This document shows, piece by piece, positions 11,258 through 54,127 of a stretch of DNA of 64,000 nt. Each line of letters starts with the position of its first letter. The first letter of the stretch is position 1. The notes under the pieces are model-generated. The model was not told the DNA's origin, searched no databases, and saw nothing but the letters and a program-made list of their open reading frames with translations. This DNA is from Candidatus Latescibacterota bacterium (GTDB taxonomy: Bacteria; Latescibacterota; UBA2968; UBA8231), in assembly GCA_965223905.1 (NCBI GenBank), contig CBDCXV010000011.1:416001-480000 (forward strand), given 5' to 3'. Made by a program: the position numbers and the translations under genes.

Positions 11258-11295
11258 GGTCTTTCCTACCCTCACGATTTCGGGGAGAGGTCGCG

Positions 11296-39564: not shown

Positions 39565-40710
39565 ATGAGGGGCAGCATTCTGTGCAGGGGCTGCGAGGCG
39601 GATTTCGGCTTCGCCATCCCCTTCCACCGCTGCCCCGAGTGCGGGGGAGCCCTCTCCTTCTCCCTGGACCGCGCCTTTCCCCTCGCCGAGATCGCCGCGC
39701 GGCCTCCCGGCATGTGGCGCTACCGCGAGGCCCTTCCGGCTTTCGAGGAGGTGATCTCCCTCGGCGAGCAGGCGACTCCCCTGGTCCCGGTGGCGCCTCG
39801 GGAGCTCGGACGGGAGGGGGTGCTTTTTAAGTGCGAGTACACCCTTCCGACCGGGTCCTACAAGGACCGCGGCGCCGCCACCCTCGTCAGCTACCTGAAA
39901 TCAGTCGGTGTCGAGGAAGCGGTCGAGGATTCGTCCGGGAATGCCGGGGCCTCGATGGCGGCCTACTGCGCCCGTTCCGGAATCTCCCTGAAGGTATTCT
40001 GCCCGCAATCCGCCTCCGCGGGAAAGCTGACGCAGATCCGGCTGTACGGGGCCGAGCTGGTGCGGGTTCCCGGGCCGCGCCCGCGGGCGACCGAGGCATT
40101 GCTCGAGCACGTCGAGGCCACCGGCAGCGCCTACGCCTCCCACCTCTGGCACCCGCTCTTCCTCGAAGGGATTCGCAGCATGGCGTACGAGATCGCCGAA
40201 CAGCTCGGCTGGGCGGCGCCCGATTTCGTCCTCTGCCCCGTCGGAGCCGGGAGCATCCTGCTGGGGCTGTTCGAGGGGTTTTCCGACCTGCTCGCCGCCG
40301 GCGTCATAGCGCGTCTGCCGCGGCTGGTTGCGGTGCAGGCGGCCAACGTCGCCGCCGTCTGCGACGCCGTGCGCACCGGCGCCGTGCGAGTAGAGCCGGC
40401 CTGCGATCCGCAGCCGACCCTGGCGGAAGGAATCGCCCTGCCGGCCCCGGTCCGGGACCGCGAGGTGCTGCACGCGATCCGCGCCTCCGGGGGAACGGCC
40501 GTCTCTGTCGTCGAAGAGGAGATCGCCGCGGGAGCGGCAACGCTCGGCAAGGCCGGCTTCTGCGTCGAACCGACTTCCGCTGTGGTCTGGAATGGGCTGC
40601 GGAAGCTGATCGAAAGCCCTTCCCCCCCTCCCCCCGGCGCCACCATCGTCGCCGTGCTGTCAGGGCACGGCCTCAAGGCCTCCCCGGCTCTGGCTGAAAT
40701 CCTCCCCTGA
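39565..40710 (+). CDS. Threonine synthase-like PLP enzyme with N-terminal Zn ribbon
   Basis: CRGC...CPEC, PTGSYKDRG, DSSGNAG, EPTSA, SGHGLK. Confidence 0.82.
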   Translation: MRGSILCRGCEADFGFAIPFHRCPECGGALSFSLDRAFPLAEIAARPPGMWRYREALPAFEEVISLGEQATPLVPVAPRELGREGVLFKCEYTLPTGSYKDRGAATLVSYLKSVGVEEAVEDSSGNAGASMAAYCARSGISLKVFCPQSASAGKLTQIRLYGAELVRVPGPRPRATEALLEHVEATGSAYASHLWHPLFLEGIRSMAYEIAEQLGWAAPDFVLCPVGAGSILLGLFEGFSDLLAAGVIARLPRLVAVQAANVAAVCDAVRTGAVRVEPACDPQPTLAEGIALPAPVRDREVLHAIRASGGTAVSVVEEEIAAGAATLGKAGFCVEPTSAVVWNGLRKLIESPSPPPPGATIVAVLSGHGLKASPALAEILP

Positions 40711-40784
40711 GCCGGCGGACGGTTCCTCTGCTCCGGCTACAATCCCTGCCCTCGCGCAATTCCGCGTGAATCCGGTCGCGTTTC

Positions 40785-42293
40785 TTACCCGGATTTGCGC
40801 GCGCTGGCTTTGAGTTCCTTGAGCCGCTGCGCGGCTTCCGAGCTCCTGTAGAAATCGTCGAGAGGGAAGCAGCCGCTGACCATGCCGTTGCGCGGGGCGG
40901 TGGTGCAGTCGCTGAAGGTGCGGCAGATCAGCTTGCGGGCCAGCTGGCCCCCGCCGTGGAGCAGATCGTGCGGCAGGTCGGGGTACGACAGCACCATGCG
41001 GCCCAGACCGACGAAATCGACGGCCCCCGAACGCACCGCGGCCTGGGCGACGTGGGGCAGGAACTCCTGCAGGTAGCTGTAACCCGATCCCACGAACACA
41101 CGGTCCGGGAACGACCTCTTCAGCCGGGCGGCGGCGGCGATCTGCCTGGCCACCCCGGCGAGCGGGTCCTCGGGCGGCTGGTACCCGTCGGAGGGCGGGA
41201 ACAGCGCCGGACGCTGAATGTGGGGGTTGTAGTAGGGGCTGCCGCAGGTGAGGTTGACGAGGTTCACCCCCCACTCGCCGAGGGCGGCAATGAAGCGGCG
41301 GGGCTCGTCGAGATCGATTTCCAGCGGGTCGCGGGGGTCGAGGCCGAACCCGTACTGGTAGGGCAGAAGGGTGTCGAAGGGTTCGGGGACCCCGGTACCG
41401 GGCTTGCCTCCGACTTCGCCGGGACCGGCTCGAAACGGCACGAAGTCATAGACACTAAGGCGCACTCCTACTTGAAGTTGAGGTGCCTCACTATTGATGC
41501 CCTCGACGATTTCCCGGCAAAAGCGGGTGCGGTTGTCGAATGAGCCGCCGAACCTGCCGGGGCGCGTGCGCGCGCTCAGCAGCTCGTGACCGAGATAGCC
41601 GTGGCAGTGCTTGACGTCGACGAAGTGGAACCCTGCGTCGCGGGCGATGCAGGCCGCTTCGACGTAGAGCTCGATCAGCCGTTGCAGGTAGTCGTCGGTG
41701 ACGGGTGCATGGCCGGGGTCGAGTCCGAACCTGCGGTCGAGGATGGGGTGCCGGTAGGCGATGCAGGGCTCCATCCGGTCCTTGCGGAAGGGCCGGCAGA
41801 AGCGTCCCGAATGGGTCAGCTGAAGGCCGACCACGAGGTCGTCGGCAGAGCCGAAGCGCTCCCGGTGCGCCGCGGTGAGGATCTCCCACAGCTCCCGAAC
41901 TCCGTCGCGGGTCGTGGCGCAAGCCATCAGCTGGTTGGGATTGGCCCTCCCCTCGGGGCACACGGCAAACGCCTCGCCTCCCCAGATCAGCTTGGCGCCG
42001 CTGCGCCCGAAGTTGCGCCAGCGGCGGCGCACGAAATCGGTGGGCATGCCGTCCCCGGTGCCGTCCCAGCCCTCCATCGGCTGGATGGCGAAGCGGTTTC
42101 CCGCACGCCTTTCGCCAATTTCGCAGGGCTGTGCCAGCGGCGATTCGGGTGCCGGCAGCGGTGCCTCGTCACAGGGAAGCGAGGCCCCGATGGCCTCGAG
42201 GTGGGCGCGGAAATCGGCGACCTGCCGGAAGGCGGACACCCGCGGATGCCGGTCCCGGCGCCGCGGGGCCTCTCCCGAATCGGTCTCAGCCAT
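40785..42293 (-). CDS. NADH:flavin oxidoreductase (Old Yellow Enzyme family)
   Basis: NRFAIQPMEG, QLTHSGR, KHCHGYL, GGSFDNRTR, VGLGR, C-terminal CRTFSDC...C. Confidence 0.88.
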   Translation of the reverse strand: MAETDSGEAPRRRDRHPRVSAFRQVADFRAHLEAIGASLPCDEAPLPAPESPLAQPCEIGERRAGNRFAIQPMEGWDGTGDGMPTDFVRRRWRNFGRSGAKLIWGGEAFAVCPEGRANPNQLMACATTRDGVRELWEILTAAHRERFGSADDLVVGLQLTHSGRFCRPFRKDRMEPCIAYRHPILDRRFGLDPGHAPVTDDYLQRLIELYVEAACIARDAGFHFVDVKHCHGYLGHELLSARTRPGRFGGSFDNRTRFCREIVEGINSEAPQLQVGVRLSVYDFVPFRAGPGEVGGKPGTGVPEPFDTLLPYQYGFGLDPRDPLEIDLDEPRRFIAALGEWGVNLVNLTCGSPYYNPHIQRPALFPPSDGYQPPEDPLAGVARQIAAAARLKRSFPDRVFVGSGYSYLQEFLPHVAQAAVRSGAVDFVGLGRMVLSYPDLPHDLLHGGGQLARKLICRTFSDCTTAPRNGMVSGCFPLDDFYRSSEAAQRLKELKASARKSG

Positions 42294-43068
42294 CGGGGCT
42301 TCGGCGGTCGCGCGCTTCCGGGCCGGACCTCAGCAGGTGTACGGTCCCCGCGATTCCTGCAATCATCAGCGTCAGGCTGATAAGCTGCGCCCCGGTCAGG
42401 CCCCAGGCCACGACCGGATTCAGGCGAATGAACTCCACTGCGAAACGGGCGCCGCCGCTGAGCATCATGTAGAGGAAAAACGTGGTGCCGGGCACCCGCA
42501 GGCGCATCCGCGTCGACCAGAGGACGGCGAAGATCGCCAATCCCATCAGGGTCTCGTAGACCGGGGCCGGATGGACTTTCTCGTAGGTGGGGACGACGCC
42601 GTCCGGGTAGGCCATCCCCCAGGGCAGATCGGTAGGCACGCCGTAGTCGCCGTCGCCGGCCAGCTGGCAGCCGATTCTGCCGATGGCGTAGCCGATCGCC
42701 AGGCCGATGCCGACGGCGTCGGCCACCTCCGGCAAAGGCGCACCGCGGCGGCGCACCACCCAGATGACCGCGGCCGTCGCCAGGAAGAAGCCGCCGTGCC
42801 AGGTTAGGCCGCTGCCGGAGAACACGGCGCCGAAGGACTCGCTCCAGGTGGCGCCCGGTGGAAGCTCGAAGAGGATGAAGTAGAGCTTGGCTCCGGCGAG
42901 GCCGGCGAGGATGCCGGCGGTGAGGATGGAGGAGGCGAGCTCGGGGTCTATTCCCTTGCGGCGCAATTCCTTCTGGATGAAGAAGTGGCCGGTTAGGAAA
43001 CCGAGAACGACCATGGGACCGAAGGTGGGCAGCTTGAAGCCGCCGATTTCCAGCCAGTAGGGGTACAT
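42286..43068 (-). CDS. lgt: Prolipoprotein diacylglyceryl transferase family protein
   Basis: GLTWHGG, GRIGC, LPWGM, HPAPVYE, RFAVEFIR. Multiple TM helices. Confidence 0.9.
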   Translation of the reverse strand: MYPYWLEIGGFKLPTFGPMVVLGFLTGHFFIQKELRRKGIDPELASSILTAGILAGLAGAKLYFILFELPPGATWSESFGAVFSGSGLTWHGGFFLATAAVIWVVRRRGAPLPEVADAVGIGLAIGYAIGRIGCQLAGDGDYGVPTDLPWGMAYPDGVVPTYEKVHPAPVYETLMGLAIFAVLWSTRMRLRVPGTTFFLYMMLSGGARFAVEFIRLNPVVAWGLTGAQLISLTLMIAGIAGTVHLLRSGPEARDRRSPDG

Positions 43069-46000
43069 CAGCCCGTCGCCCCGGCGGCGCTGTTGCCGCC
43101 TTCCTCCGCTTTCCCGGCGAGGCGCGCGATCTCCCGCCGCACCTGCGCGGTGACCTCCCTGTAGACCTCGTAGTTCCCCAGGCGCTGGCGGCGGGCGGCG
43201 TACGGGGCCATCTCCACGGGGGGTCCGAAGTTCAGCCGCACCGGGTTGCGGCGGGGAAAACGGCCGTGTTTCGGCAGCGCTTCCCGGGTACCGAGGACGT
43301 GCACCGGCACGATCGGCAGGTCGAGCTCCACCGCCAGCAGACCCACCCCGGTCCTGAACGGCTGCAGCCGGCCGCTCGGGGACCGCGTTCCCTCCGGAAA
43401 GACCAGCAGCGGCCTGCGCACCCCGATCAGGCGGCGCAGGGCCAGCAGGCTTTCGAGGAACTCCTCCTGCCGGTCGAAGGGGACGGCGTCGAGCATGGTG
43501 TGCAGGAACCAGCTCAGCAGCGGCGACCTGGAGAAGTAGTCCCTTGCCGCGGCGAGGCTGAGGCGGTCGACGTGAGGCCTGACCGCCAGCAGTATGGAGG
43601 GGGCGTCGAGATGGCTCGAGTGATTGGCTGCGATCACGTAGGGACGGTCGGCTGGAAGGTGCTCCAGTCCCCTGGCCTTCAGCGAAAAATAGAGGCGGAA
43701 CAATCCCCCACCGGCGCTCCAGAATGCTTCCCGCAGGGCGCCGGAACCGCCTTCGGCCGGGCGCCGGTGTTCCCTGTTCCCGTCTTCTCCCCGCAGCGCC
43801 CGGGTCCAGTACCCGCCCTCGTTCACGGAGGAAACGACCTCCTTTCCCGCGTCCGCAAACAGAGGCTCCAGTTTATCCATCAGGCTTCTCAGCGTGGGGC
43901 TGCGGTGGATCTCCCGGGGAAGCGAACGGCCGAGCGTCTCCTCGACGACCGCGGCGAACTCGACCGACATCAACGAATCGAGCAGGCTGTTGAGGGGGGC
44001 GTCGCCGTGGGCGAGCACCTCTGCCGCCGTCAGTCCCGTTATCCTGCTCAGCAGGTCGTAGACCGACCTCTCCCACGGCGCCAGGCTTTCGTCGACCTCG
44101 ACCTCGGCGCCATGCAGCTGATGCTGCAGCTCCTCCAGCACCCGGGTCCGGTCGACTTCACCGGCGTGGTTGCGCGGCAGCGGCCGGCTGCGCACGTGCA
44201 GGCGTTGAATCCGCTGGTAGGTCGGCAGGTGGCGGGAAATCCCGTACGCCGCCTCCTTCACCCTCGCGGCCGCGGCTTCCCCGGCCCCCTCCTCCAGGAC
44301 CGCCACTCCGTGAGCTTCCTCGCTCAGGGTGCGCGGCGACCTCACCCCGACTACGCTCAGCTCCGCCACCTCGGGCAGGCCGCGGTACAGCCCCTCCACT
44401 TCACCGGGGTAGACGTTTTTGCCCGCGCCGGTGACGATCAGGTCCTTGCAGCGGCCGGTGATGAACAGGTACCCGTCGTCGTCGAGGTAGCCGATGTCGC
44501 CGCTGTGCAACCAGCCGTCCATGAGGACCTCGGCGGTCAGTTCGGGACTGTCGAGATACCCGGGCATGACGTTGGGCCCGCGCACGAGGATCTCGCCACA
44601 GCCGCGGGGATCCGGCTCGTCGATGCGCAACTCGACCCCGGGCAGCGGGATTCCGACCGATCCCTTCCTGGTCTTCCCCGGCGGGTTGACGGTGACGATG
44701 GGGGACGTCTCTGTAAGGCCGTACCCCTCGTACACGGTAACCCCCATGCGCCGGTAGCTCTCGAAGATTCCCGAAGCCAGGGGCGCGCCCCCGCTGACGA
44801 CGAGCTTGAGCCTGGAAATCAGGGCGGCGCTGTCGCGATTCAGGGCGTTGCGCTCCTCCTCGCCGTGCCTGCCGAGACGTTCGATGCGATCGGCGAGGAT
44901 TTTCAGCAGCCGGGGCACCGCGAGCAGCGCCGTCGTGCCGGTCTCCCGCATCGTTTCGAGGATGACCCGGCTGTTGAGGGTCTCGAGGTAGGTGATCGTC
45001 GCCCCGCTGAGCAGCGACATCAGCAGCGAGCCGGTGAACTCCAGGCCGTGGTGGAGGGGGAGCAGGGAGAGGACGCGGTCCCCCCTGTCGAGGCGCTGCA
45101 CCTCGGCCAGGGCGAGCAGATCGGAGAGGAAATTGCGGTGCGTCAGCACCACTCCCCTCGGTTCGATCGCGGTGCCGGCCGTGAAGATGATCGACGCCTC
45201 CATCTCCGGGGTGACCTCGGGCGGTTTCCGGTCCCCCTGCGGGGCAGGCTGCGCCTCCTCTGATGCCCCATCCGGCGGCGGGGACGGCCTGCCTTCGTTT
45301 TCGAGGTCGAAGACAGGCAGCGGCCAGCCGGCCAACCCCGACCCCGCTTCGGGGTTCAAAGTCTCGAAGCAGGGGCGCGAGGCGATCAGGCCCCGGGCCC
45401 TGGTGAACGCCGCCAGCTTCCACACCTCCTCCCCGCGGGTCTGCGGGTCGACGGGAACCACCGACAGACCGCCGACCGACGCCGCCATGTAGGCGATCAC
45501 CCACTCGGGACTGTTTGCCGCGTACAGCAGCACGCGGTCGCCCGACTCGAGCCCGCAGCGCTGCCACAAGTCCGCCTGGGCCTCTGCCCGGGCCAACAAC
45601 CCCCCGAAGGCGACCTTCCTCCAGGAATTCCCGCGCTTCATCTGCAGGGCCGTGACCTCCCCGTAGCGGGCGCACGACCAGCGCAGCAGGTCGGGAATCG
45701 TCTGCAGCTCTTCCTCCTGCTGCCAGCGCTCCTCTTCCGAGCCGACCTCGGCCGGCGCCTCGCGGAAGATCTCCTCTTCCCCGGCGTCCCTCAGGACGTG
45801 CCGCCTGAGTCCGGGCAGATGGACGTCGCAGATGTAGCGCTCCCAATCGATGCGCTCGACGTCCATGTTGAAATCCTGCCGCTCCCCTTCCGGCAGACGC
45901 GCGTAGAGCGAGCGGGCGCGGTCGGTGGCAAAGCTGCAGGTCAGGTGGGTGTACGGATGGTAGATGTCGGCGTAGTACAGCACCCTCTGGAGACGGATCT

Positions 46001-47414
46001 TCATCGTCGACAGGAGCCGGCGTTTCTGCGGGGAAGCCCAGCGCCATCCCGAAGGCAGGCGCTTGAGCCACCAGGAATGAAGCGCCAGCGGCAGCGAGTA
46101 CTTGAGCCGGAATTTCAGCCGGAAGCGGCGCACGCCGGGGTAGGTCCAGCTCGCCAGGTGCGGAGCGCGGCCGTCGCGGCCGAGAAGCGGGTTGGCGCTG
46201 AAGTAGGTCACCAGGCTGTCGTAGAGCTGGGAAATCCGCACCGGGTTCCGGCTCGCCGTGGCCGCGTGGTAGACCTGCACCTCCCCGGGGGAGGCCTGGG
46301 TCGCCGCGGCCAGGGTGGTGTTGACGACGACGTCGACCGGGACGATGTCGAGGGCGAGATCGGGCCGCGCCGGAAAATCGGGCAACAATCCCTTGCCGTA
46401 CGCCGCCACCAGGGGATCCATCACCTTCAGCCCGGTGATCCACCCCGGCTCGGGATCCTCGAGGGAGCTTTCGATGATGCTCGGCCGCACGATGACGAGC
46501 GCCTGGCCGTCGCGGTTCCCGACCAGCAGCTGCTCCCCCATCGCCTTGGTGAAGGTGTAGACGTCGTTCCAGCCGTGCTCCCTGGCGCGCCGCATGCCCT
46601 CGTCGACGAGGCGGCGCTCGATCCAGTGCCTGCTTCGGTCCTCGGTGAGCTTCTCGAGCCGGCTCTTCGACAGCGGCCGGGTGCGGTGCTGCCGCAGGAT
46701 GGCGCGCTCGAACCCGCGGCGGAGCGCCTCTCCCCGGCCCTCCTCGTACACCCCCCGGCAGAACTCCTCGCAGTCGGCGATCTCGCGCTCGGGATCGAAC
46801 GGCGCCGACCCGGCACCCGGATTCGCCATCTGGCTGATGTCCCGGTCCAGGGGCAGGGGCTCCTCCGGTATGACCCCGGTAAGGCGGCCGTTGACGTAGG
46901 CGGTGGAGACGTGGACGAAGTCGACCGGCTTGCGGCAGCCTGCGGCGAATTGCAGGAGGGCGAGCGGGCCGTGGGTGTTGAGGCGGATCGAGTCGTCGAG
47001 GGGCTCGTCGAAGACCACGGTCGCGGCGCTGTTGAAGATGGTGTCGATCTCCTGGCGCAGGCGGTCGAGCATCGCCGGTTCGACCCCGAAGTCCGGCTTG
47101 TCCGTGTCCCACGGGACGGCAACGACCTTGGCTGCCTGGGGCGCGAATCCTTCGGGATCTCCGTCGCGGTGGCGGCGGAAGACCGCGTCCTCCGCCAGCA
47201 TCCGCTGCACCCGCTCTTCCGCGGAAAGGGTCTCGCCGTTGCGGCCGCGGCCCGGGCGGGCGAAGGCGTAAATCCGCTCCACCTGCGGCAGGTCGCGAAG
47301 GATTTTCGCGATCAAAGCCTGGCCCAGGAAACCGGTGCCGCCGGTGATCAACAGACTGCGGCCGGCGAAATACTCGCGGATCATCTCGAGACCTGTCCCG
47401 TCATCTCGCGGCAC
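43068..47414 (-). CDS. Multidomain fatty acyl reductase / AMP-binding / carrier / acyltransferase protein (ElbD-like architecture)
   Basis: FAR: TGGTGFLG, HVSTAYV, YTFTK, RPSII. ANL fold: YEGYGLTE, GWLHSGD, GRCKDLI..GKNVYP. Carrier: LDSL. PlsC type: NHSSHLD, FPEGTRS. Confidence 0.9.
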   Translation of the reverse strand: MPRDDGTGLEMIREYFAGRSLLITGGTGFLGQALIAKILRDLPQVERIYAFARPGRGRNGETLSAEERVQRMLAEDAVFRRHRDGDPEGFAPQAAKVVAVPWDTDKPDFGVEPAMLDRLRQEIDTIFNSAATVVFDEPLDDSIRLNTHGPLALLQFAAGCRKPVDFVHVSTAYVNGRLTGVIPEEPLPLDRDISQMANPGAGSAPFDPEREIADCEEFCRGVYEEGRGEALRRGFERAILRQHRTRPLSKSRLEKLTEDRSRHWIERRLVDEGMRRAREHGWNDVYTFTKAMGEQLLVGNRDGQALVIVRPSIIESSLEDPEPGWITGLKVMDPLVAAYGKGLLPDFPARPDLALDIVPVDVVVNTTLAAATQASPGEVQVYHAATASRNPVRISQLYDSLVTYFSANPLLGRDGRAPHLASWTYPGVRRFRLKFRLKYSLPLALHSWWLKRLPSGWRWASPQKRRLLSTMKIRLQRVLYYADIYHPYTHLTCSFATDRARSLYARLPEGERQDFNMDVERIDWERYICDVHLPGLRRHVLRDAGEEEIFREAPAEVGSEEERWQQEEELQTIPDLLRWSCARYGEVTALQMKRGNSWRKVAFGGLLARAEAQADLWQRCGLESGDRVLLYAANSPEWVIAYMAASVGGLSVVPVDPQTRGEEVWKLAAFTRARGLIASRPCFETLNPEAGSGLAGWPLPVFDLENEGRPSPPPDGASEEAQPAPQGDRKPPEVTPEMEASIIFTAGTAIEPRGVVLTHRNFLSDLLALAEVQRLDRGDRVLSLLPLHHGLEFTGSLLMSLLSGATITYLETLNSRVILETMRETGTTALLAVPRLLKILADRIERLGRHGEEERNALNRDSAALISRLKLVVSGGAPLASGIFESYRRMGVTVYEGYGLTETSPIVTVNPPGKTRKGSVGIPLPGVELRIDEPDPRGCGEILVRGPNVMPGYLDSPELTAEVLMDGWLHSGDIGYLDDDGYLFITGRCKDLIVTGAGKNVYPGEVEGLYRGLPEVAELSVVGVRSPRTLSEEAHGVAVLEEGAGEAAAARVKEAAYGISRHLPTYQRIQRLHVRSRPLPRNHAGEVDRTRVLEELQHQLHGAEVEVDESLAPWERSVYDLLSRITGLTAAEVLAHGDAPLNSLLDSLMSVEFAAVVEETLGRSLPREIHRSPTLRSLMDKLEPLFADAGKEVVSSVNEGGYWTRALRGEDGNREHRRPAEGGSGALREAFWSAGGGLFRLYFSLKARGLEHLPADRPYVIAANHSSHLDAPSILLAVRPHVDRLSLAAARDYFSRSPLLSWFLHTMLDAVPFDRQEEFLESLLALRRLIGVRRPLLVFPEGTRSPSGRLQPFRTGVGLLAVELDLPIVPVHVLGTREALPKHGRFPRRNPVRLNFGPPVEMAPYAARRQRLGNYEVYREVTAQVRREIARLAGKAEEGGNSAAGATG

Positions 47415-47503
47415 TGCCGGCGCTCGCCCACCCCACTCGGGGGCCTTGCGAGACAGGTGCCTCGGCGGCGCAATCCTGGCAATCCATTTCCGGGACGGAA
47501 CAC

Positions 47504-47764
47504 TTATTGTTCATCCGGGTCGGAGGGGTCGTCTTGTTCATCCGGGTCGGAGGGGTCGTCGGCGCGGAGGCCTTGAGTCGAGAGGTCCGATCCGTTGCCT
47601 TCCTGTTCTGTCCGTTGGCGGTCGGAGCCCTGCGGGGGCTCGAGCCCCTGCCCGGTTATGTACGGGTGCCGGAAATGCTTTCTCAGCGCCTCCAGGAGCG
47701 GCTTGTCCAGCCGGTCCGGGGCGCCGTCGCCGCTGCCGGTTCCGTCTTCGGGACGCCTCGCCAT
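47504..47764 (-). CDS. Putative small acidic protein (86 aa) upstream of the ElbD-like gene
   Basis: GAAGGA RBS before ATG 47764. MARRPEDG...LDKPLLEALRKHFRHPYI...(DDPSDPDEQ)x2. Confidence 0.45.
   Translation of the reverse strand: MARRPEDGTGSGDGAPDRLDKPLLEALRKHFRHPYITGQGLEPPQGSDRQRTEQEGNGSDLSTQGLRADDPSDPDEQDDPSDPDEQ
47507..47560. repeat. Perfect 27-bp tandem duplication
   Basis: TTGTTCATCCGGGTCGGAGGGGTCGTC at 47507-47533 and 47534-47560. Confidence 0.92.
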
Positions 47765-47863
47765 TGCCATTCCTTCAGGTAAACTCACTGAAGATACGGC
47801 GCCCCGTGGTGTCAGCAATTTGAACGGCGGCAGCACCGCCGCGGCAGGGGAGCCCGCACAGGA

Positions 47864-48787
47864 ATGGAAAAGAATCAGACCGCCACGGGACGCTGGGCCA
47901 TCATCGCCAATCCGGCCGCGGCCCGGGGCCGCGCCCCGCTCCTTGCGGCCGCGGCTTCGCGCTACCTTGGCGAACGCGGGATCGCCGCGGACCTGTTGGT
48001 TTCGGAGGGCCGCGGCCACGCCTGCGAGCTCGCCCGCAAAGCGATCGCCGAAGGAGCCGGCCGCATCGTGACGTGCGGAGGGGACGGCACCGTCAACGAG
48101 ATCCTGCCCGCGGTCGCCGGCTCGCGGGCCGCTCTCGGACTGCTGCCTTGCGGAACCGCCAACGACTTCGCGCGCGCCCTCGGGATACCGCGGCAACCGC
48201 GTCGGGCGCTGCGCAACCTGGTCGAGGGACGCGAGGTCCGCGTCGACCTCGGGGCCTGCGGCGACCGCTACTTCTGCACCGTCGCCGCCTGCGGGTTCGA
48301 CGCCGAGGTCAGCGAGGCGATGCGCGAGGGCCGCCGCCTGCCGGGAACGGCAGGGTACCTCTGGGCGGCGCTCCGCCACTTGTTCCGCTTCGAGCCGGCG
48401 AAGGTGGCGGCGACGGGGGATTTCGGCCGCCTGGAGACCGAGGTGCTGCTGGTCGCCGCGGCGGTAACGCGAAGCTACGGCGGCGGCATGCGGATCGCTC
48501 CGCACGCCGATCCCGCGGACGGGAGGTTCGACGTCGTCATCATCGGCCCGGTCGCCAGAAGAACGGTGGTGGCGATGCTCCCCCGCCTGTTCCGGGGCAG
48601 CCACGTCGGGCATCCCGCGGTGCGCATCGAGCGTTCCTCGTTCCTCGAGATCGAGACACCGGGCGGCGCCCGGCCGCTGTACGCCGACGGCGAGCCCCTG
48701 GGAGAGACGCCGGTTTCCCTGCGCATCGCCCCGGGGTCGCTTCGCGTCATTGTTCCGCGGCCCCCGGCCCTCGGGATGCCGCCGTGA
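47864..48787 (+). CDS. Diacylglycerol/lipid kinase family protein (YegS/DagK-like)
   Basis: IANPAA, GGDGTVNE, GTANDFAR, YGGG, DGE. Confidence 0.9.
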   Translation: MEKNQTATGRWAIIANPAAARGRAPLLAAAASRYLGERGIAADLLVSEGRGHACELARKAIAEGAGRIVTCGGDGTVNEILPAVAGSRAALGLLPCGTANDFARALGIPRQPRRALRNLVEGREVRVDLGACGDRYFCTVAACGFDAEVSEAMREGRRLPGTAGYLWAALRHLFRFEPAKVAATGDFGRLETEVLLVAAAVTRSYGGGMRIAPHADPADGRFDVVIIGPVARRTVVAMLPRLFRGSHVGHPAVRIERSSFLEIETPGGARPLYADGEPLGETPVSLRIAPGSLRVIVPRPPALGMPP

Positions 48788-48897
48788 CCGCAGCGCGCCG
48801 CCGGACATTGGCGATCCAAAAAGGGAGGCGGCGAGTCTCTCCTTGCCCGCATCCGCTATTTTCGCCAAATTACAAGACCCCCCACAGCAGCGCTCTG

Positions 48898-48910
48898 CCC
48901 CCCCCCCCCC
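48898..48910. repeat. Poly-C homopolymer (C13) upstream of the MCE gene
   Basis: Thirteen consecutive C ending 37 nt before ATG 48948. Confidence 0.8.
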
Positions 48911-48947
48911 ACTCGTCCCATTCCCCCCTTTTGAGCCGTGACGCCCC

Positions 48948-49919
48948 ATGGCATCCCGGGCCCAGAAAATCCGTCTGGCCGTCTTCCTGCTTTCCGCCGC
49001 CGGCGTGCTTCTGCTGTTCCTGTTCTACGTGGCCGGTCGCAGCGTCCTCACACCGCGGCAGACCTACTTCATCGATTTCCCCGATTCGATCGGGGGACTT
49101 CGGCGCGGGGACAAGGTCAAGTACCTCGGGATCGAAGCCGGACGCGTCGAGAACACCTCGATCTCCCCTGACGATCACTCGGTGATCGTCGTCGAGATCT
49201 CCATCGAGGGGGACAAGGTCCCCAACGTCATCCGCGAAGACACCCGGGCGCGGCTGAAAAGCGTCGGCCTCACCGGGTTGAAGCACATCGAGCTCGTCTC
49301 CGGATCGCCGGACTCGCCGGTGCTCCCTCCCGATTCCCGCATAGCCTCGAGTCCGACCTTCCTGTCGGAAATGGGCGACCGCGCCGAGGAGCTGACCGAC
49401 AAGTTTGGAGTTCTGCTCGATAACGTGACCGAGATGACCGACCGGGAAAACAGCGCCCGGCTCAACCGCATGCTCGCCACGGGCAGCGAGTTCACCGCCA
49501 GCGCCAACGAGTTGATGAACGACAACCGCCGGCAGATCGACGAAAGCTTCCGCAACCTCGCGGCCATGACCAGGTCGCTCGCCGGGGCCGCGGCCTCCCT
49601 GCACACAACCATGGACTCGGTGAACGCCCTGGTCACCGACGGCGAACTGCGCGGCACCCTCACCGACCTGCGCCGAACCAGCCGTTCCCTGCAGCTTCAG
49701 ATGGAGGGGCCGGTTCCGCAGCTGCTGGCCAACCTCTCGCGCATGGCCGGCAACATCGACACCACCTTCATGCGACTGGACCGCACCGTGATGCAGGGCC
49801 GCAGGAACTTCCTCGACGCGATCCAGGACCTCCAGGAAACCATGCTCAACGTCCGCCAGGCGACGGAGCTGATCCGGGAGAACCCCTCGATCCTGATTCG
49901 CGGCCGCGCCGATCGCTAG
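48948..49919 (+). CDS. MCE (MlaD-family) protein with long helical C-terminal region
   Basis: N-terminal TM, SIGGLRRGDKVKYLGIEAGRV, GLTGLKHIEL, helical tail ending ENPSILIRG. Confidence 0.9.
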   Translation: MASRAQKIRLAVFLLSAAGVLLLFLFYVAGRSVLTPRQTYFIDFPDSIGGLRRGDKVKYLGIEAGRVENTSISPDDHSVIVVEISIEGDKVPNVIREDTRARLKSVGLTGLKHIELVSGSPDSPVLPPDSRIASSPTFLSEMGDRAEELTDKFGVLLDNVTEMTDRENSARLNRMLATGSEFTASANELMNDNRRQIDESFRNLAAMTRSLAGAAASLHTTMDSVNALVTDGELRGTLTDLRRTSRSLQLQMEGPVPQLLANLSRMAGNIDTTFMRLDRTVMQGRRNFLDAIQDLQETMLNVRQATELIRENPSILIRGRADR

Positions 49920-49929
49920 CTCCGTGCCG

Positions 49930-50721
49930 ATGCCTGTGTCCATCCCCAGTTGCTCCCGGTACCTGCGGTCGGCGGCGATCGCCCTTGCCGCCGCCTTCAT
50001 CTCCTGCACGAGCCTGATCGGCGGCAAGGCCGAGATCCGCGAAAAGCGCAAGTTCATCATAGAGTCGGCGCCGTTGTCGCTGAACCTGCCGAACTCGGAG
50101 CGCCCCTACGCCCTGCACGTCGAGGTCGGCAAGTTCGACATCTCCAGGCTGTACGACCGCAACCAGATCATCCTCAGGCAGTCCGCCGAGGAGGTCCGCG
50201 AGAAGGCCCACCACTCCTGGGCGGTGCGGCCCAGCGAGATGATCACCGACGCCGTCGAGGGCTACCTGAAAGAGGCCCGCCTGTTCACCGATATCCGCCA
50301 GGACTTCGTCGACGTCATCCCCGACTACCGGATCACCGGCACCGTCAAGTCGCTGGAACGCCTCGACAGCGGCGACCAGTGGTACGCCAACTTCAGGCTG
50401 TCGGTGCAGCTGGTCGACGGCAGGAACGAGGTCGTCAAGAGATGGGACTTCGACGACGAAGCGGAGCGCGTGTACCACCGGGATTTCGTGCACACGGTGA
50501 CGGCATTCAACGAACTGCTAAGGCGCTACATGTACCGGGTGATCCGCGACATGGACCACATGTTCCTCATCCGCAAGCTGCAGCGGGAGAACCGTCCGTA
50601 CCAGCACATCCTCGACGTGCCGAACGGCCGCGCCTCCGCCCCCGCCGACACCGCGGTCAGCGACAGCACCCGGGACGCCCCGCATCCCGACTACGATATC
50701 ATCCCCGGAAAGGGCCTGTAG
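49930..50721 (+). CDS. ABC-type transport auxiliary (PqiC-like) lipoprotein
   Basis: Lipobox-like AFISC, YDRNQIILR...HSWAVRPSEMI, position after the MCE gene. Confidence 0.72.
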   Translation: MPVSIPSCSRYLRSAAIALAAAFISCTSLIGGKAEIREKRKFIIESAPLSLNLPNSERPYALHVEVGKFDISRLYDRNQIILRQSAEEVREKAHHSWAVRPSEMITDAVEGYLKEARLFTDIRQDFVDVIPDYRITGTVKSLERLDSGDQWYANFRLSVQLVDGRNEVVKRWDFDDEAERVYHRDFVHTVTAFNELLRRYMYRVIRDMDHMFLIRKLQRENRPYQHILDVPNGRASAPADTAVSDSTRDAPHPDYDIIPGKGL

Positions 50722-50722
50722 C

Positions 50723-52264
50723 ATGCGCTGTTGCCGCTCCGCTCCCACGGCCCTCTGCCTCGCGTTCCCCGCGGTCCTGTTCGTTGCATTCGCCGCGGCC
50801 GACGAGAGCACCTGGTCGGCGCCTCCGGGGCGCGTGCAGCTGGCCGAGGACCCGCAGCTGATCCCCAAGGGGAAGGGGATGCTGTTCGTGCCGATGATGA
50901 GCGTTCCCCACGGCAACGAGCCCAGCTACCAGATCTACAGGAAGGGCGGCGACCTCGTCGGTTCCGCCAGTCCCGGAAGCGGCGTACTGCTGCCCCCCGG
51001 AAGCTACCGGGTGCGCATCGGTTCCGGGGCGATCTCGCAGATGATCAAGAAGACGGTGGAAGTGGTGGAGGGGAGCAGCACCCTGCTCAAACCGGACTGG
51101 TCGGCCCTGGTGATCGACGTCATCGACCAGACCCGCACCCCGGTCAGCGAATCGTACGAGCTCTACCAGGAGGAGACCCAGGAGAACTTCGGCCAGGGGC
51201 TCGGCATCGAGGAAGAACGCGGGGAAAAGGTCCGCACCTGGCTCCTGAAGCCGGGCGTCTACCACGTCGTCAGGGTCGGCGAGTCGTTCTCGACCATCCG
51301 CAAGTTCAGCGTCCGGCTGGAACCTGGAAAGCTGGTGCAGCGCGACCTCGTCTACGACGCTTCCTCGGGGAACTTCATCGGTTTCTACGCACGCCCCATG
51401 CTTCCATACGGGACCGCCCGAATCGCCAGGAACGTCACCTCGCAGACCGAGCTCAGCGGATCGACACTGTTCCACACCTCCCAGAACACCGCCGGCGAGG
51501 ACATGTCGAGCACCTCGCTGTCGCTGCAGGTCTTCAACCGGACCCGCTACAGCACCGAGCAGCACTTCGCCAACCTGCGGCTGATCTTCGAGGAGGGGGC
51601 CACCCAGGAGGGAGACAAGGGCTTCCACAAGTCGATCGACAAGCTCGAGCTGCGGGGCACCTACATCTACCGCGTGTCGACCGCGTTCGGCCCCTACCTG
51701 CGCGGGGTGCTCAACACCAAGCTGTTCTCCGACGACATCACGTTCGACCGTCCGTTCGCAGGGGATTTCATCAAATACGGCGCCCTGGAGGACACCCTCA
51801 ACATCATCCCCAACCCGGCGGAGGTGATCCTGTCCCCCGCGTTCTTCCCCCTGCGCCTGCGCCAAGGGGTCGGGATCAACTCCCAGCTGGTGCGCTCGTT
51901 CGCCCTCAACGCCGACGTCCGCCTCGGTTTCGGAGCCCGGCAGACCTACGTCTCCCACTCGTTCGAGCTCGCCTCGAACCAGCGCTCCGCCACCGAGCTG
52001 GAGAACGCCTTCAGCAGAGGCTTCGAGGCGGTGTTCATCACCGACGCGCGCCTGGCCAAATCGATCAACTTCGACTCGGAATTCGACATCCTGATCCCTG
52101 GGGGGAACCGGGACGACTGGGTGTTCAGCTGGCAGAATCGCCTGCGCATCTTCCTCACGAGCTTCATCAACCTCGACCTGGTGGGGGATCTCGAGCGCGA
52201 AGAGACGCTGAAGCGGCTGCAGGGACGGGAGCAGATCCTGTTGCGGTTCTCCCGTTTCTTCTGA
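50723..52264 (+). CDS. Exported protein with N-terminal beta-sandwich repeats and probable C-terminal outer-membrane beta-barrel
   Basis: Signal peptide, LPPGSYRV and LKPGVYHV Ig-like repeats, amphipathic strands, terminal Phe (LLRFSRFF). Confidence 0.6.
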   Translation: MRCCRSAPTALCLAFPAVLFVAFAAADESTWSAPPGRVQLAEDPQLIPKGKGMLFVPMMSVPHGNEPSYQIYRKGGDLVGSASPGSGVLLPPGSYRVRIGSGAISQMIKKTVEVVEGSSTLLKPDWSALVIDVIDQTRTPVSESYELYQEETQENFGQGLGIEEERGEKVRTWLLKPGVYHVVRVGESFSTIRKFSVRLEPGKLVQRDLVYDASSGNFIGFYARPMLPYGTARIARNVTSQTELSGSTLFHTSQNTAGEDMSSTSLSLQVFNRTRYSTEQHFANLRLIFEEGATQEGDKGFHKSIDKLELRGTYIYRVSTAFGPYLRGVLNTKLFSDDITFDRPFAGDFIKYGALEDTLNIIPNPAEVILSPAFFPLRLRQGVGINSQLVRSFALNADVRLGFGARQTYVSHSFELASNQRSATELENAFSRGFEAVFITDARLAKSINFDSEFDILIPGGNRDDWVFSWQNRLRIFLTSFINLDLVGDLEREETLKRLQGREQILLRFSRFF

Positions 52265-52277
52265 CCGCCCCCGACCG

Positions 52278-53369
52278 ATGAGCGAGGTCGCTGACATCGA
52301 CGCGGGCATTCGCCTCACCGGCCCCCTCACCCTGGAGACGCTGCCCGGACTGGGAAGCCGCTGCCGGCGTCTGATCGACAGCCATCCGCACACCCGTTTG
52401 TCGGCCGACGTCACCGCGGTAAGCGCCATCGACACCGCCGGGGTCGTTTTCCTGCGCGGCCTGCCTAAAGCGGCCGGGGCTTCGGGCAAGGAGCTGGTGG
52501 TCGGCCCCCTTCCGGAGAACCTTCAGCCGTTCTACGACTTCGTACGGCCCCCGCAGGCCGCGGCCAGCGAAGCGCCTGCGCGTCCTGCGCTCGGCCAGCG
52601 CCTCGGCGACGCCGCGGAGGATCTCGTCGACCGCGCCGCGGATTTCCTCTACCTCGCCTCCGACCTCACCTGGGTCGCAGCGGCGGCGATCTTCCGGAGA
52701 TTCGGCATCCGCCGCGGCTCCTTCGTCGATCAGGCGGTCGCCATCGGCTCCCGGGGCCTGCCGATCGTCGCGCTCATACTGTTCCTCGTCGGCGGGGTAT
52801 CGACCCTGCAGGCCGCGGCCCAGCTGCGCCAGTTCGGCGCCAACATCTTCGTCGCCGACCTGCTCGCCATCGGCGTCAGCCGCGAGCTCGGGCCGCTGAT
52901 GACGGCGATCATCGTCGCCGGCCGCAGCGGCTCGGCGATCGCCGCGGAAATTGCGACGATGAAGTTCACCGAGGAGATCGACGCCCTGCGCACCATGGCT
53001 CTCGATCCCCTGCGCATGGTAGCCGTCCCCAAGATGTGGGCGATGCTGCTGACGGTTCCCCTGCTTACGGTGATGGCGGTTTTCTGCGGCCTCCTCGGAG
53101 GGACCCTCACCGGGGTTCTCTCCCTCGACATCGCCCCCACCACCTTCGTCGCCCGGATCACCGACGCCCTCCAGCTCAAGGACATCCTCACCGGCCTGGT
53201 CAAGAGCGTCTCCTTCGCCTGGATCATCACCGTGATCGGCGTCCACCGCGGCCTCAACTCCACGGGCGGAACGACCGGGGTCGGGGTCTCCACCACCTCG
53301 TCGGTGGTCAGCTCGATCTTCGGCATCATCGTCCTCGACCTCTCCTGGGGTCTCTTCTTCTACCTGTGA
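52278..53369 (+). CDS. mlaE: MlaE-family permease with N-terminal STAS domain
   Basis: STAS (VSAIDTAG), RELGPLMTAIIVAGRSGSAIAAEIATMK..EEIDAL, VGVSTTSSVV. Confidence 0.92.
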   Translation: MSEVADIDAGIRLTGPLTLETLPGLGSRCRRLIDSHPHTRLSADVTAVSAIDTAGVVFLRGLPKAAGASGKELVVGPLPENLQPFYDFVRPPQAAASEAPARPALGQRLGDAAEDLVDRAADFLYLASDLTWVAAAAIFRRFGIRRGSFVDQAVAIGSRGLPIVALILFLVGGVSTLQAAAQLRQFGANIFVADLLAIGVSRELGPLMTAIIVAGRSGSAIAAEIATMKFTEEIDALRTMALDPLRMVAVPKMWAMLLTVPLLTVMAVFCGLLGGTLTGVLSLDIAPTTFVARITDALQLKDILTGLVKSVSFAWIITVIGVHRGLNSTGGTTGVGVSTTSSVVSSIFGIIVLDLSWGLFFYL

Positions 53370-53377
53370 CAACGTCG

Positions 53378-54127
53378 ATGGCAGCGGATGCGCAGGCGGT
53401 CCCGGCGATCGACATAGAGCGCCTGCGCGTGGCCTACGGGGACCACCTCGTGCTGCGCGACGTCAGCCTGCGCGTCGGGCAGGGAGGGATCGTCGTCGTC
53501 GTCGGGGGCAGCGGCTGCGGCAAGAGCACCCTGCTCAAGGCGGCCATCGGCCTCGTGGAGCCGAGCTCGGGGGCGGTGCGCCTGCTGGGTTCGGAGCTGC
53601 GCTCGCTGGAAGAATCCCGGCAGAGAGAGCTGAAGAAGCGGATCGGGGTGATGTTCCAGTACGGAGCCCTGCTGAACTCGCTGACGATCGGCGAGAACGT
53701 CGCCCTGCCGCTGGAGATGCACACCGACCTCGAAGCCGACCTGGTGCGCGAAGTGGTTTCCACGCGACTGCAGCTGGTCGGCATCGGGCAGGCGATCGAC
53801 CGCCTTCCCACCGAGCTTTCCGGCGGCATGCGCAAGCGCGCCGCCCTTGCCCGCGCCATGGCCCTGGAGCCGGATATCCTTTTCTGCGACGAGCCGGGTG
53901 CCGGGCTCGATCCGGTGACCGCGGCCGAGGTCGACCGCCTGCTGCTCACCGTCAACCGCAGCCTCGGCGTAACCCTCGTCGTCGTCACCCACGAGCTGCT
54001 CAGCATCGAGAGACTCGGGGGGGACCTGCTGATGCTCGCCGGGGGAGAGGTCCTGTTCTCGGGCCGCTCCGAGGAAGCGCGCCTCTCCGGCAAACCGGAG
54101 CTGGCGGGCTTTTTCAACCCGCAGTGA
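53378..54127 (+). CDS. mlaF: MlaF-family ABC ATPase
   Basis: GGSGCGKST, FQYGAL, LSGGMRKRAALARA, DEPGAGLDP. Confidence 0.92.
   Translation: MAADAQAVPAIDIERLRVAYGDHLVLRDVSLRVGQGGIVVVVGGSGCGKSTLLKAAIGLVEPSSGAVRLLGSELRSLEESRQRELKKRIGVMFQYGALLNSLTIGENVALPLEMHTDLEADLVREVVSTRLQLVGIGQAIDRLPTELSGGMRKRAALARAMALEPDILFCDEPGAGLDPVTAAEVDRLLLTVNRSLGVTLVVVTHELLSIERLGGDLLMLAGGEVLFSGRSEEARLSGKPELAGFFNPQ

What the first reader, a model, noticed from the sequence alone, without database searches (positions are those of the whole stretch)
40785..47764. ElbD-like lipid megaenzyme translationally coupled to Lgt and a flavin oxidoreductase: candidate specialised (ether) lipid-to-protein transfer system
Seen: the 1448-aa FAR-adenylation-carrier-acyltransferase gene's TGA overlaps the lgt ATG (TGATG at 43068). 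lgt in turn overlaps an OYE-family gene by 8 nt, and a small ORF precedes the unit. Known: this domain order matches Myxococcus xanthus ElbD, implicated in alkyl-ether lipid synthesis; Lgt transfers a diacylglyceryl group from phosphatidylglycerol to lipobox Cys; OYEs reduce activated C=C bonds. Inference: the operon may build an alkyl/alkenyl-glycerol lipid, adjust its saturation and attach it to lipoproteins. I know of no described ElbD-Lgt coupling, but could not search for one.
Basis: partly seen in the sequence, partly recalled or inferred. Interest (0 to 1): 0.85.

Follow-up and report, generated by a model that had tools for sequence, protein, structure and literature searches.

The report
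ElbD lipid gene beside housekeeping lgt
A large ether-lipid-type enzyme gene sits in one operon with the bacterium's only lipoprotein-anchoring gene and a flavin reductase gene, but this looks like gene order inherited within one lineage rather than a special system for putting ether lipids on proteins.

Summary
On the minus strand an ElbD-architecture gene (FAR, adenylating ligase, carrier, acyltransferase), lgt and an OYE-family gene follow each other with 1-nt (TGATG) and 8-nt overlaps. The preceding small ORF is not conserved.

The proposed specialised ether-lipid-to-protein system is not supported:
- **Only lgt copy.** This lgt is the only one found in the 7.9-Mb genome. LspA, Lnt and a BamD with an LLSGC lipobox are present, so it is the housekeeping copy.
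- **Narrow linkage.** Of 27 sampled phylum genomes holding both lgt and the OYE orthologue, 4 have them adjacent, all from one family. Thirteen have them at least 177 kb apart on one contig.
- **Single origin.** On an OYE tree all linked copies form one clade.
- **ElbD without the partners.** One genus in that family has ElbD in the same syntenic block without lgt or OYE.
- **OYE context elsewhere.** OYE orthologues elsewhere sit beside sugar-acid-type genes.
- **Lgt residues.** Its unusual residues match a described "CD" variant, and F at the Y26 position is common in that subtype.

Best reading: an ElbD homologue for ether-lipid synthesis (AGPS lies elsewhere, DAG-kinase and Mla genes adjacent), co-transcribed with housekeeping lgt.

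The parts
43068..47414 (-). ElbD-architecture multidomain lipid enzyme. The ORF runs from GTG 47414; the likely start is ATG 47384, giving 1438 aa. Domains: FAR about 47348-45789, adenylating ligase about 45683-44160, carrier about 44063-43875, AGPAT-type acyltransferase about 43679-43299.
   Evidence: Pfam domains. Long-chain acyl-CoA ligase families in NCBIfam, all below their cut-offs. In an alignment of 19 full-length homologues these residues are invariant or nearly so: T24/G25/G28, Y286/K290, D1146/S1147, N1264/H1265/D1270, P1340/E1341. 1039 full-length-range homologues at E<=1e-50.
42286..43068 (-). lgt: prolipoprotein diacylglyceryl transferase of the 'CD' variant type. It is the only lgt found in the genome.
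   Evidence: PF01790 157.4 bits. TIGR00544 100.4 bits, below its 118.9 cut-off. E. coli Lgt 5azb at E 5.6e-07. One match in G000. Motif survey.
40785..42293 (-). 502-aa OYE-superfamily flavoprotein, a member of a conserved family of about 490 aa.
   Evidence: PF00724 77.8 bits. Homologues at 60-74% identity. Alignment A1. AF2 model with pLDDT 84.9. Top Foldseek hits are the ene-reductases TsER, XenA and YqjM, E down to 6e-22.
47504..47770 (-). Small ORF of 88 aa in the divergent intergenic region; probably not a gene.
   Evidence: No family match. Found by tblastn only in the 94%-identical L002.
47507..47560 (.). Perfect 27-bp tandem duplication (2.0 copies) at the 3' end of the small ORF.
   Evidence: Tandem Repeats Finder, 100% matches, score 108.
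47864..48787 (+). Divergently transcribed DAG-kinase/YegS-type lipid kinase; the likelier functional partner of ElbD.
   Evidence: DAGK_cat 3.2e-30 and YegS_C 4e-41. Present beside full-length ElbD in L002-L007, L017, L026 and L034, and three genes downstream of ElbD in G015.
48948..54127 (+). Mla-like lipid ABC transport genes downstream of the kinase: MlaD 48948-49919, ABC_trans_aux 49924-50721, a 513-aa protein 50723-52264, STAS-MlaE 52278-53369, and an ABC ATPase within ORF 53036-54127.
   Evidence: Pfam. Syntenic in relatives of the same family.

Best explanation
This is an envelope-lipid operon of a Latescibacterota bacterium. Its first gene is an ElbD homologue, an enzyme required for alkyl ether lipid formation in Myxococcus.

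Inferred from the domains: the adenylating domain activates a fatty acid and loads it on the carrier domain. The N-terminal FAR domain reduces it to the aldehyde or alcohol. The C-terminal AGPAT-type domain acylates a glycerol-phosphate or DHAP backbone. Together with the AGPS gene found elsewhere in the genome, this gives a route to 1-O-alkyl glycerolipids. The divergently transcribed DAG-kinase-type lipid kinase and the Mla-like transporter are the likelier functional neighbours.

The lgt that follows is the organism's single housekeeping prolipoprotein diacylglyceryl transferase, of a known 'CD' sequence variant. The OYE-family gene encodes an ene-reductase-like flavoprotein. Its orthologues elsewhere are unlinked to lipid genes.

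The three genes are co-transcribed in this lineage. The arrangement arose once in one family-level clade and is best read as inherited gene order, at most co-regulation of envelope functions. It is not a dedicated ether-lipid-to-protein pathway.
For: **ElbD identity**
- Domain order and intact motifs.
- The architecture matches ElbD as described in PMC9131029.
- Latescibacterota elbD and agps hits are already reported in bioRxiv 10.64898/2026.06.23.733905.

**AGPS**
- G000 C11:2082686-2084509 matches mammalian AGPS 4bby at E 2.3e-147.

**Housekeeping lgt**
- 1 lgt match in G000, 1 lspA and 2 Lnt_N matches.
- The BamD-like protein carries an LLSGC lipobox.
- 52 of 61 sampled phylum genomes have exactly one lgt match.

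**Linkage is narrow**
- Of 27 genomes with both lgt and an OYE orthologue (E<=1e-100), 4 are linked (G000, G043, G055, G060). 13 are at least 177 kb apart on one contig, and 10 are on different contigs.
- Of 80 metagenome loci with OYE orthologues, lgt is adjacent in 4, all with f1-type synteny. 57 of the 80 have at least 900 nt upstream of OYE.
- The 15 linked OYE copies plus one of unknown status form one clade, SH-aLRT 99.
- G056, in the same family, has MlaD<>ElbD followed by cupin and GFO_IDH_MocA genes on the opposite strand. It has no lgt or OYE there and no OYE orthologue at E<=1e-20. Its genus's lgt, seen in G045 (locus L025), is of another type and lies elsewhere.

**DAGK association recurs**
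- It is seen in f1, in G015 and in sponge symbiont clades according to the preprint.

**Co-transcription (weak)**
- RNA-library contigs bridge both junctions in 2 of 4 runs of one study.
Against: - The FAR-Lgt-OYE core stays together even where ElbD is reduced to FAR alone and the flanks have changed (G060/L016, L008, L030, L033). This could reflect selection for the trio rather than inertia.
- Gene overlaps suggest translational coupling.
- The lgt carries residues that inactivate E. coli Lgt when introduced there (Y26F, Y235S; PMC4728403 passages). Its activity and donor preference are therefore untested assumptions.
- The genome is 93.6% complete, so a second lgt in the missing part is not excluded.
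- No biochemical data exist for any of these proteins.
- M. xanthus ElbD itself could not be aligned here.
Confidence: 0.7

Rival explanations
1. First reader's reading. The operon is a dedicated system: ElbD builds an alkyl or alkenyl glycerolipid, the OYE adjusts its saturation, and this Lgt transfers the ether-linked glyceryl group to lipobox cysteines.
For: - Tight operon with overlaps, and RNA-library contigs across both junctions.
- The FAR-Lgt-OYE core is retained across the linked clade, including the FAR-only forms.
- Within the phylum sample, F at the Y26 position occurs in 14 of 14 linked Lgts and in 0 of 45 unlinked ones. Y26 hydrogen-bonds the donor lipid in E. coli Lgt (PMC4728403).
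- No competing description of the coupling was found in print.
Against: - This is the sole lgt, with a normal LspA/Lnt/lipobox set, so it cannot be a specialised extra copy.
- The linkage has a single origin inside a large syntenic block.
- Sister lineages keep FAR, lgt and OYE dispersed.
- G056 keeps ElbD without lgt or OYE beside it and without any OYE orthologue.
- F at the Y26 position is common in the subtype: 67 of the 150 best cluster representatives, with Y in 64. It is not a special adaptation.
- OYE orthologues elsewhere lie beside DHDPS/DUF993-like, SDR, MFS and GH88-like genes.
- OYEs reduce activated C=C bonds. A vinyl ether is not such a substrate (established chemistry, recalled).
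Confidence: 0.08
2. In this clade the OYE-family flavoprotein has been recruited to the ElbD pathway. For example, it might reduce an enoyl or enal intermediate held on the carrier or released by the FAR domain. lgt would be a passenger.
For: - OYE is always the last gene of the unit in the linked clade.
- In the phylum sample, 25 of the 28 genomes with an OYE orthologue (E<=1e-100) also have a FAR-domain match.
- The fold and the conserved KHCHGYL/ENRTRF motifs fit an active ene-reductase.
Against: - The co-occurrence is phylogenetically confounded.
- G004, G010 and G025 have the OYE but no FAR-domain match at E<=1e-30. G045, G056 and G015 have ElbD without a close OYE orthologue.
- In G007 and G057 the OYE sits beside a 2-hydroxyacid dehydrogenase. 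In other metagenome loci it sits beside sugar-acid-type genes.
Confidence: 0.1
3. The Lgt homologue moonlights as an ether-bond-forming enzyme. It would transfer a diacylglyceryl group from phosphatidylglycerol to the fatty alcohol made by the FAR domain, giving alkyl-diacylglycerol, by the same alkyl-transfer chemistry it uses on cysteine thiols.
For: - The ether-forming step of the ElbD route is unknown (PMC9131029 passages).
- FAR directly precedes lgt in every linked locus, including the FAR-only forms.
- The chemistry is analogous. This is inference only.
Against: - The same lgt type is unlinked in sister lineages that also have FAR.
- It is the only lgt, so it must serve lipoproteins.
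- The genome has AGPS, a known ether-forming enzyme.
- None of 10 long Lgt-containing representatives scanned is a fusion to FAR or OYE.
Confidence: 0.03

Closest known systems
Myxococcus xanthus ElbD and the elbA-E operon (Lorenzen et al. 2014, known here only through PMC9131029 passages)
   Same: Same four-domain order: FAR-like reductase, acyl-activating domain, carrier, AGPAT-like acyltransferase. The catalytic motifs are intact. An AGPS gene lies elsewhere in the genome, as in M. xanthus.
   Different: No ElbB (HAD), ElbC or ElbE/ElbA (NAD-dependent epimerase) type neighbours. Instead lgt and an OYE gene lie downstream, and a DAG-kinase plus Mla-like transporter is transcribed divergently. 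Direct sequence identity to M. xanthus ElbD was not measured.
elb-like gene clusters of sponge symbionts (bioRxiv 10.64898/2026.06.23.733905; passages)
   Same: The preprint reports elbD and agps hits in Latescibacterota MAGs, split or Re-domain-only variants, and DAG kinases beside elbD in some clades. All of this is seen here. RNA libraries labelled sponge metagenome hold parts of this stretch.
   Different: The preprint calls the Latescibacterota hits 'standalone'. Its main text holds none of the words Lgt, lipoprotein, flavin or oxidoreductase. Its figure and supplementary tables could not be seen.
E. coli Lgt (PDB 5azb/5azc) and the 'CD/CC' Lgt variants (PMC4728403; bioRxiv 10.1101/2025.03.27.645668; passages)
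   Same: PF01790 membership. H103, G104, G142, R143, G145, G154, R239, E243 and R246 equivalents are kept. N146 to C and E151 to D is the described 'CD' replacement.
   Different: F at Y26 and S at Y235 are changes that inactivate the E. coli enzyme. The protein is 260 aa with a shorter head region. TIGR00544 scores below its cut-off.
Thermophilic-like ene-reductases TsER, XenA and YqjM (OYE family)
   Same: TIM-barrel fold: Foldseek E 6e-22 to 2e-18, TM-score normalised to target 0.7-0.8. OYE-type motifs QLTHSGR, HGYL, ENRTRF and GLGR are conserved.
   Different: About 150 residues longer, with insertions and a C-terminal segment holding invariant Cys457/Cys463/Cys475. Only 20-24% identity. 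The Pfam match covers only two thirds of the model.

Membership tests
ElbD-type multifunctional ether-lipid enzyme | Domain order: FAR-like reductase, acyl-activating (AMP-binding) domain, carrier protein, AGPAT-like acyltransferase, all in one polypeptide | tested here: met
   Pfam. The carrier domain is just below cut-off (19.0 vs 20.8 bits), but D1146-S1147 is invariant in 19 homologues.
ElbD-type multifunctional ether-lipid enzyme | Catalytic motifs of each domain present: Rossmann GxxGxxG and YxxxK, DSL serine, HX4D and FPEG | tested here: met
   Sequence and invariant columns T24/G25/G28, Y286/K290, D1146/S1147, N1264/H1265/D1270, P1340/E1341. The motif names are recalled.
ElbD-type multifunctional ether-lipid enzyme | Sequence homology to the characterised M. 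xanthus ElbD | not tested
   No tool gave that sequence.
ElbD-type multifunctional ether-lipid enzyme | elb operon context (elbB HAD, elbC, elbE NAD-dependent epimerase) | tested here: not met
   Neighbours are lgt, OYE, DAGK, Mla-like genes, PALP and IlvD.
ElbD-type multifunctional ether-lipid enzyme | Needed for alkyl ether lipid formation | not testable with these tools
   Requires lipidomics or genetics.
Lgt (prolipoprotein diacylglyceryl transferase) | Family profile match | tested here: met
   PF01790 157.4 bits against a 24.9 cut-off. However, the NCBIfam equivalog TIGR00544 scores 100.4, below its 118.9 cut-off.
Lgt (prolipoprotein diacylglyceryl transferase) | 13-residue Lgt motif Y26-H103-G104-G142-R143-G145-N146-E151-G154-Y235-R239-E243-R246 | tested here: inconclusive
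   Nine positions are kept. Four differ: F at Y26, C at N146, D at E151, S at Y235. The C/D pair is a described variant. F at Y26 occurs in 67 of 150 subtype representatives.
Lgt (prolipoprotein diacylglyceryl transferase) | Acts as the cell's lipoprotein-modifying enzyme: single copy, with LspA, Lnt and lipobox substrates present | tested here: met
   1 lgt, 1 lspA, 2 Lnt_N matches, and a BamD-like protein with LLSGC. This is indirect; the genome is 93.6% complete.
Lgt (prolipoprotein diacylglyceryl transferase) | Diacylglyceryl transfer from phosphatidylglycerol to Cys | not testable with these tools
   Requires complementation or an enzyme assay.
Old Yellow Enzyme (FMN ene-reductase) family | Family profile match and TIM-barrel fold | tested here: met
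   PF00724 77.8 bits against a 27 cut-off, model positions 2-231 of 342. AF2 pLDDT 84.9. Foldseek top hits are all OYEs.
Old Yellow Enzyme (FMN ene-reductase) family | Active-site His/Asn pair and proton-donor Tyr | tested here: inconclusive
   Invariant K228, C230, H231 and Y233 and nearly invariant H229 in KHCHGYL. The mapping onto YqjM residues is recalled, not aligned here.
Old Yellow Enzyme (FMN ene-reductase) family | FMN binding and reduction of activated C=C | not testable with these tools
   Requires biochemistry.

The most novel reading that the evidence does not exclude
In this Latescibacterota clade the single Lgt may have become physically and translationally coupled to ether-lipid synthesis because its natural donor is an ether-containing phosphatidylglycerol. 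Lipoproteins of these bacteria would then carry alkyl-acyl-glyceryl (ether) anchors. That would be a bacterial lipoprotein anchor chemistry not found described in the literature searches made here. The FAR-Lgt-OYE core would be a functional module.
Probability: 0.07. Interest if true: 0.75.

Novelty: new member of a known kind. Interest (0 to 1): 0.3.

Why it matters
The finding adds a well-resolved example of an ElbD-type enzyme, plus AGPS, in Latescibacterota. That phylum has only recently been flagged as a possible ether-lipid producer. It points to a DAG-kinase-type lipid kinase and an Mla-like transporter as the more recurrent neighbours of ElbD, which may help fill the unknown steps of the bacterial aerobic ether-lipid route.

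It also shows that a striking overlap between a lipid megaenzyme and lgt need not mean a new pathway. The lgt here is the housekeeping copy, and the gene order arose once.

If ether lipids are abundant in these cells, whether the sole Lgt passes ether-linked glyceryl groups to lipoproteins remains a fair experimental question. The genomic evidence gives no special reason to expect it.

Tried and rejected
- **Apparent Lgt-OYE fusion in G055.** My alignment seemed to show one. It was an artefact. The two genes share a frame but are separated by a stop codon (gene list), and MAFFT drops '*'.
- **F at the Y26 position as a clade-specific adaptation.** Within the phylum it separates linked from unlinked loci perfectly: 14 of 14 linked have F, and 0 of 45 unlinked do. 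Among the 150 best 50%-identity cluster representatives of this Lgt subtype, however, F occurs in 67, Y in 64, a gap in 18 and P in 1. I dropped it as evidence.
- **Lgt fusions to FAR or OYE.** Ten long Lgt-containing representatives were scanned. Partners were TPR, a periplasmic binding protein, a methyltransferase, a redoxin, or nothing recognisable.
- **Promoter and terminator scan of 40300-48000.** 0 promoter-like and 5 terminator-like sites, against 3.8 expected. Uninformative.
- **Rfam on the whole window.** One tRNA only.
- **Stretches without RNA-library contigs.** These, and the depths, are not interpretable.
- **OYE neighbours in G007, G057, G003 and G015** (2-hydroxyacid dehydrogenase, HemD/methylase, MreC, lysine-decarboxylase-like, GDSL lipase). 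They gave no lipid link.
- **Tools and files not available.** Supplements of the two preprints (neighbour tables for Latescibacterota elbD hits; Suppl. Fig. 5 of the Lgt preprint) could not be seen and may bear on the 'not in print' and 'CD variant' statements.


Full report
**What is there**

On the minus strand of the window three ORFs follow one another: 47414-43068 (1448 codons from GTG), 43068-42286 (260 aa) and 42293-40785 (502 aa).

Pfam assigns the first to NAD_binding_4 plus Sterile (a FAR-type reductase), AMP-binding, a carrier domain just under cut-off, and Acyltransferase. The second is LGT and the third Oxidored_FMN. NCBIfam gives only sub-threshold matches for all three. For lgt, TIGR00544 scores 100.4 against a 118.9 cut-off.

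The real start of the large gene is probably ATG 47384. Relatives align from residue 10-11, and an identical database protein has 1438 aa.

The small upstream ORF (47770-47504) has no family match. It is not found beyond a 94%-identical relative. It ends in a perfect 27-bp tandem duplication. I do not count it as a gene.

**Surroundings**

Divergently transcribed from the unit are a DAG-kinase/YegS-type lipid kinase (47864-48787) and an Mla-like set: MlaD, an ABC auxiliary lipoprotein component, a 513-aa protein, STAS-MlaE and an ABC ATPase.

Convergent on the other side are a PLP-dependent enzyme and IlvD.

Record titles of related loci name Candidatus Latescibacterota. Four RNA libraries labelled sponge metagenome, all from one study, hold parts of the stretch.

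**Is the lgt a special copy?**

No. The evidence is as follows.
- The 7.9-Mb assembly (93.6% complete) has one PF01790 match, which is this gene.
- It also has one lspA and two Lnt_N matches.
- A BamD-like protein has a signal peptide ending in an LLSGC lipobox.
- In a sample of 61 genomes of the phylum, 58 have lgt and 52 have exactly one match. Each of the three other genomes with the linkage has one.

The residues that look odd against E. coli Lgt are C at N146 and D at E151. These are the 'CD' replacement described for distant Lgts in bioRxiv 10.1101/2025.03.27.645668 (passages). C at that position is the majority state in this phylum.

F at Y26 and S at Y235 would inactivate the E. coli enzyme (PMC4728403 passages). 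F at Y26 is found in 14 of 14 linked Lgts and in none of 45 unlinked ones in the phylum. I took this as a possible signal until I checked the subtype at large. Among the 150 best cluster representatives, F occurs in 67 and Y in 64. It is an ordinary variant.

**Is the adjacency conserved?**

Only in one lineage.

The six genome loci with full-length ElbD at 50-94% identity (L002-L007) have MlaD-DAGK<>ElbD-Lgt-OYE<IlvD. A seventh locus (L008) has a FAR-only gene followed by Lgt and OYE.

The linked loci share a syntenic block of more than 20 kb. Their agreement is therefore inheritance.

In the 61-genome sample, 28 genomes have an OYE orthologue at E<=1e-100, and 27 of these also have lgt.
- 4 have lgt and OYE adjacent: G000, G043, G055 and G060, all of family f1.
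- 13 have them on one contig at least 177 kb apart.
- 10 have them on different contigs.

The FAR or ElbD gene is likewise elsewhere in those unlinked genomes.

Genus g3 of the same family has ElbD in the same block, but followed by cupin and GFO_IDH_MocA genes on the other strand. It has no OYE orthologue at E<=1e-20. Its lgt is of the N146 type and lies elsewhere.

G015, from another family, has a full-length ElbD (37-40% identity) followed by an alcohol dehydrogenase, a LarA-like gene and a DAG kinase, with no lgt or OYE nearby.

Of 80 metagenome loci holding OYE orthologues, lgt is adjacent in 4, all with f1-type synteny. 57 of the 80 have at least 900 nt upstream of OYE.

On a maximum-likelihood tree of 95 OYE rows, the 15 linked copies form one clade with SH-aLRT 99. 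The clade also holds one locus whose contig starts inside the gene, so its status is unknown. The sister group is the unlinked copies of G007 and G057. The linkage arose once.

**What the parts most likely do**

*ElbD homologue.* It keeps the motifs of all four domains in an alignment of 19 homologues at 37-64% identity. It belongs to a set of 1039 full-length-range relatives at E<=1e-50.

According to PMC9131029 (passages), M. xanthus ElbD is required for alkyl ether lipid formation. Its acyl-activating and carrier activities were shown in vitro. The ether-forming steps remain unknown. Its operon partners are HAD, unknown and NAD-epimerase proteins, none of which is here.

*AGPS.* The genome holds a clear AGPS at C11:2082686-2084509, E 2.3e-147 to PDB 4bby. 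In G057 a FAR-only gene lies two genes from an AGPS-like gene. Ether-lipid capacity seems general in this class. This agrees with the sponge-symbiont preprint, which reports elbD and agps hits in Latescibacterota MAGs.

*DAG kinase.* It is the more recurrent neighbour. It lies beside all ten full-length ElbD genes of the linked clade that could be checked and near ElbD in G015. The preprint reports it in other phyla. It is missing where ElbD is reduced to FAR (L016, L030) and in G056. I infer that it phosphorylates the (alkyl)acylglycerol product. This is inference only.

*OYE-family protein.* It belongs to a conserved family of about 490 aa with 60-74% identity among the best hits. It has OYE motifs and four invariant cysteines, a confident TIM-barrel model and ene-reductases as top structural matches.

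Outside the linked clade its neighbours are as follows.
- A 2-hydroxyacid dehydrogenase in G007 and G057.
- In metagenome loci: DHDPS/DUF993-like (20 loci), SDR (17), MFS (17), GH88-like (13), cupin (9) and GFO_IDH_MocA (6) genes.

That context suggests a sugar-derived enone rather than a lipid substrate.

**Expression**

Contigs assembled from RNA libraries bridge the ElbD/lgt junction (X20 43019-43510; X21 43010-43511). They also bridge the lgt/OYE junction (X20 42186-42344; X21 42093-42506), at depths of 2-6. This fits one transcript but does not prove it. DNA carry-over was not controlled.

**Verdict**

The proposed specialised lipid-to-protein system meets two of its author's three refutation conditions.

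The locus is a new, well-resolved member of the ElbD kind in a phylum where elbD hits were recently noted. It has a lineage-specific gene order that places the housekeeping lgt and an unrelated-looking flavoprotein behind it.

No ElbD-Lgt coupling was found in print in the searches, nor in the preprint's main text. Its figure and supplements were not seen.

What remains open is whether the sole Lgt of an ether-lipid-making cell passes ether-linked glyceryl groups to lipoproteins. That is an experimental question, and I give it a low prior.

Noticed in passing
G000 C11:2082686-2084509 (locus L027), outside the window: A clear alkyl-DHAP synthase (AGPS) homologue: E 2.3e-147 to mammalian AGPS 4bby, and 61% identical to an AGPS-like gene of G057. 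The genome therefore has the classic ether-forming enzyme as well as ElbD.
   Followed up: partly
L013 (G057) 6080-7693 and 9135-11534: In a genome of a sister family, a FAR-only gene lies two genes from a 799-aa AGPS-like FAD oxidase. This FAR+AGPS pairing recalls the M. xanthus MXAN_1675/1676 operon.
   Followed up: no
window 47864-54127: The DAG-kinase-type lipid kinase is followed by a full Mla-like ABC transport set: MlaD, auxiliary lipoprotein component, STAS-MlaE, ATPase. It is syntenic across the family.
   Followed up: partly
L016 (G060), L030, L008, L033: Within the linked clade, some loci have only the FAR part of ElbD before lgt-OYE. Where the upstream region is visible (L016, L030), the DAG-kinase gene is missing too. 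The kinase seems tied to the ligase-carrier-acyltransferase half.
   Followed up: partly
window 40785-42293 (protein residues 230, 457, 463, 475): The OYE family has four invariant cysteines, three in a C-terminal C-x5-C-x11-C stretch with low model confidence. From recall, this resembles part of the Fe-S motif of FadH-type OYE relatives. Not tested.
   Followed up: no
L025 (G045) 6813-7700 and L024 (G056): Genus g3 of the same family has an N146-type Lgt only 26% identical to the window's. It resembles the Lgt of family f3, while its ElbD block lacks lgt and OYE. This looks like replacement of one lgt type by another.
   Followed up: partly
L005, L006, L008 and proteins P0075, P0143: Loci and proteins falling in the same tight OYE/ElbD clade carry record names of different phyla: Gemmatimonadaceae, Planctomycetota, Handelsmanbacteria, Latescibacterota. 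MAG labels here are inconsistent.
   Followed up: no
window 47507-47560: A perfect 27-bp tandem duplication in the ElbD/DAGK intergenic region.
   Followed up: no
L030-L109 (metagenome loci): Outside the linked clade, OYE orthologues recur beside DHDPS/DUF993-like, SDR, MFS, GH88-like, cupin and GFO_IDH_MocA genes. This may be an uncharacterised sugar-acid catabolic cluster.
   Followed up: partly
window 11583-11655: One tRNA gene, the only Rfam match at gathering threshold in the window.
   Followed up: no
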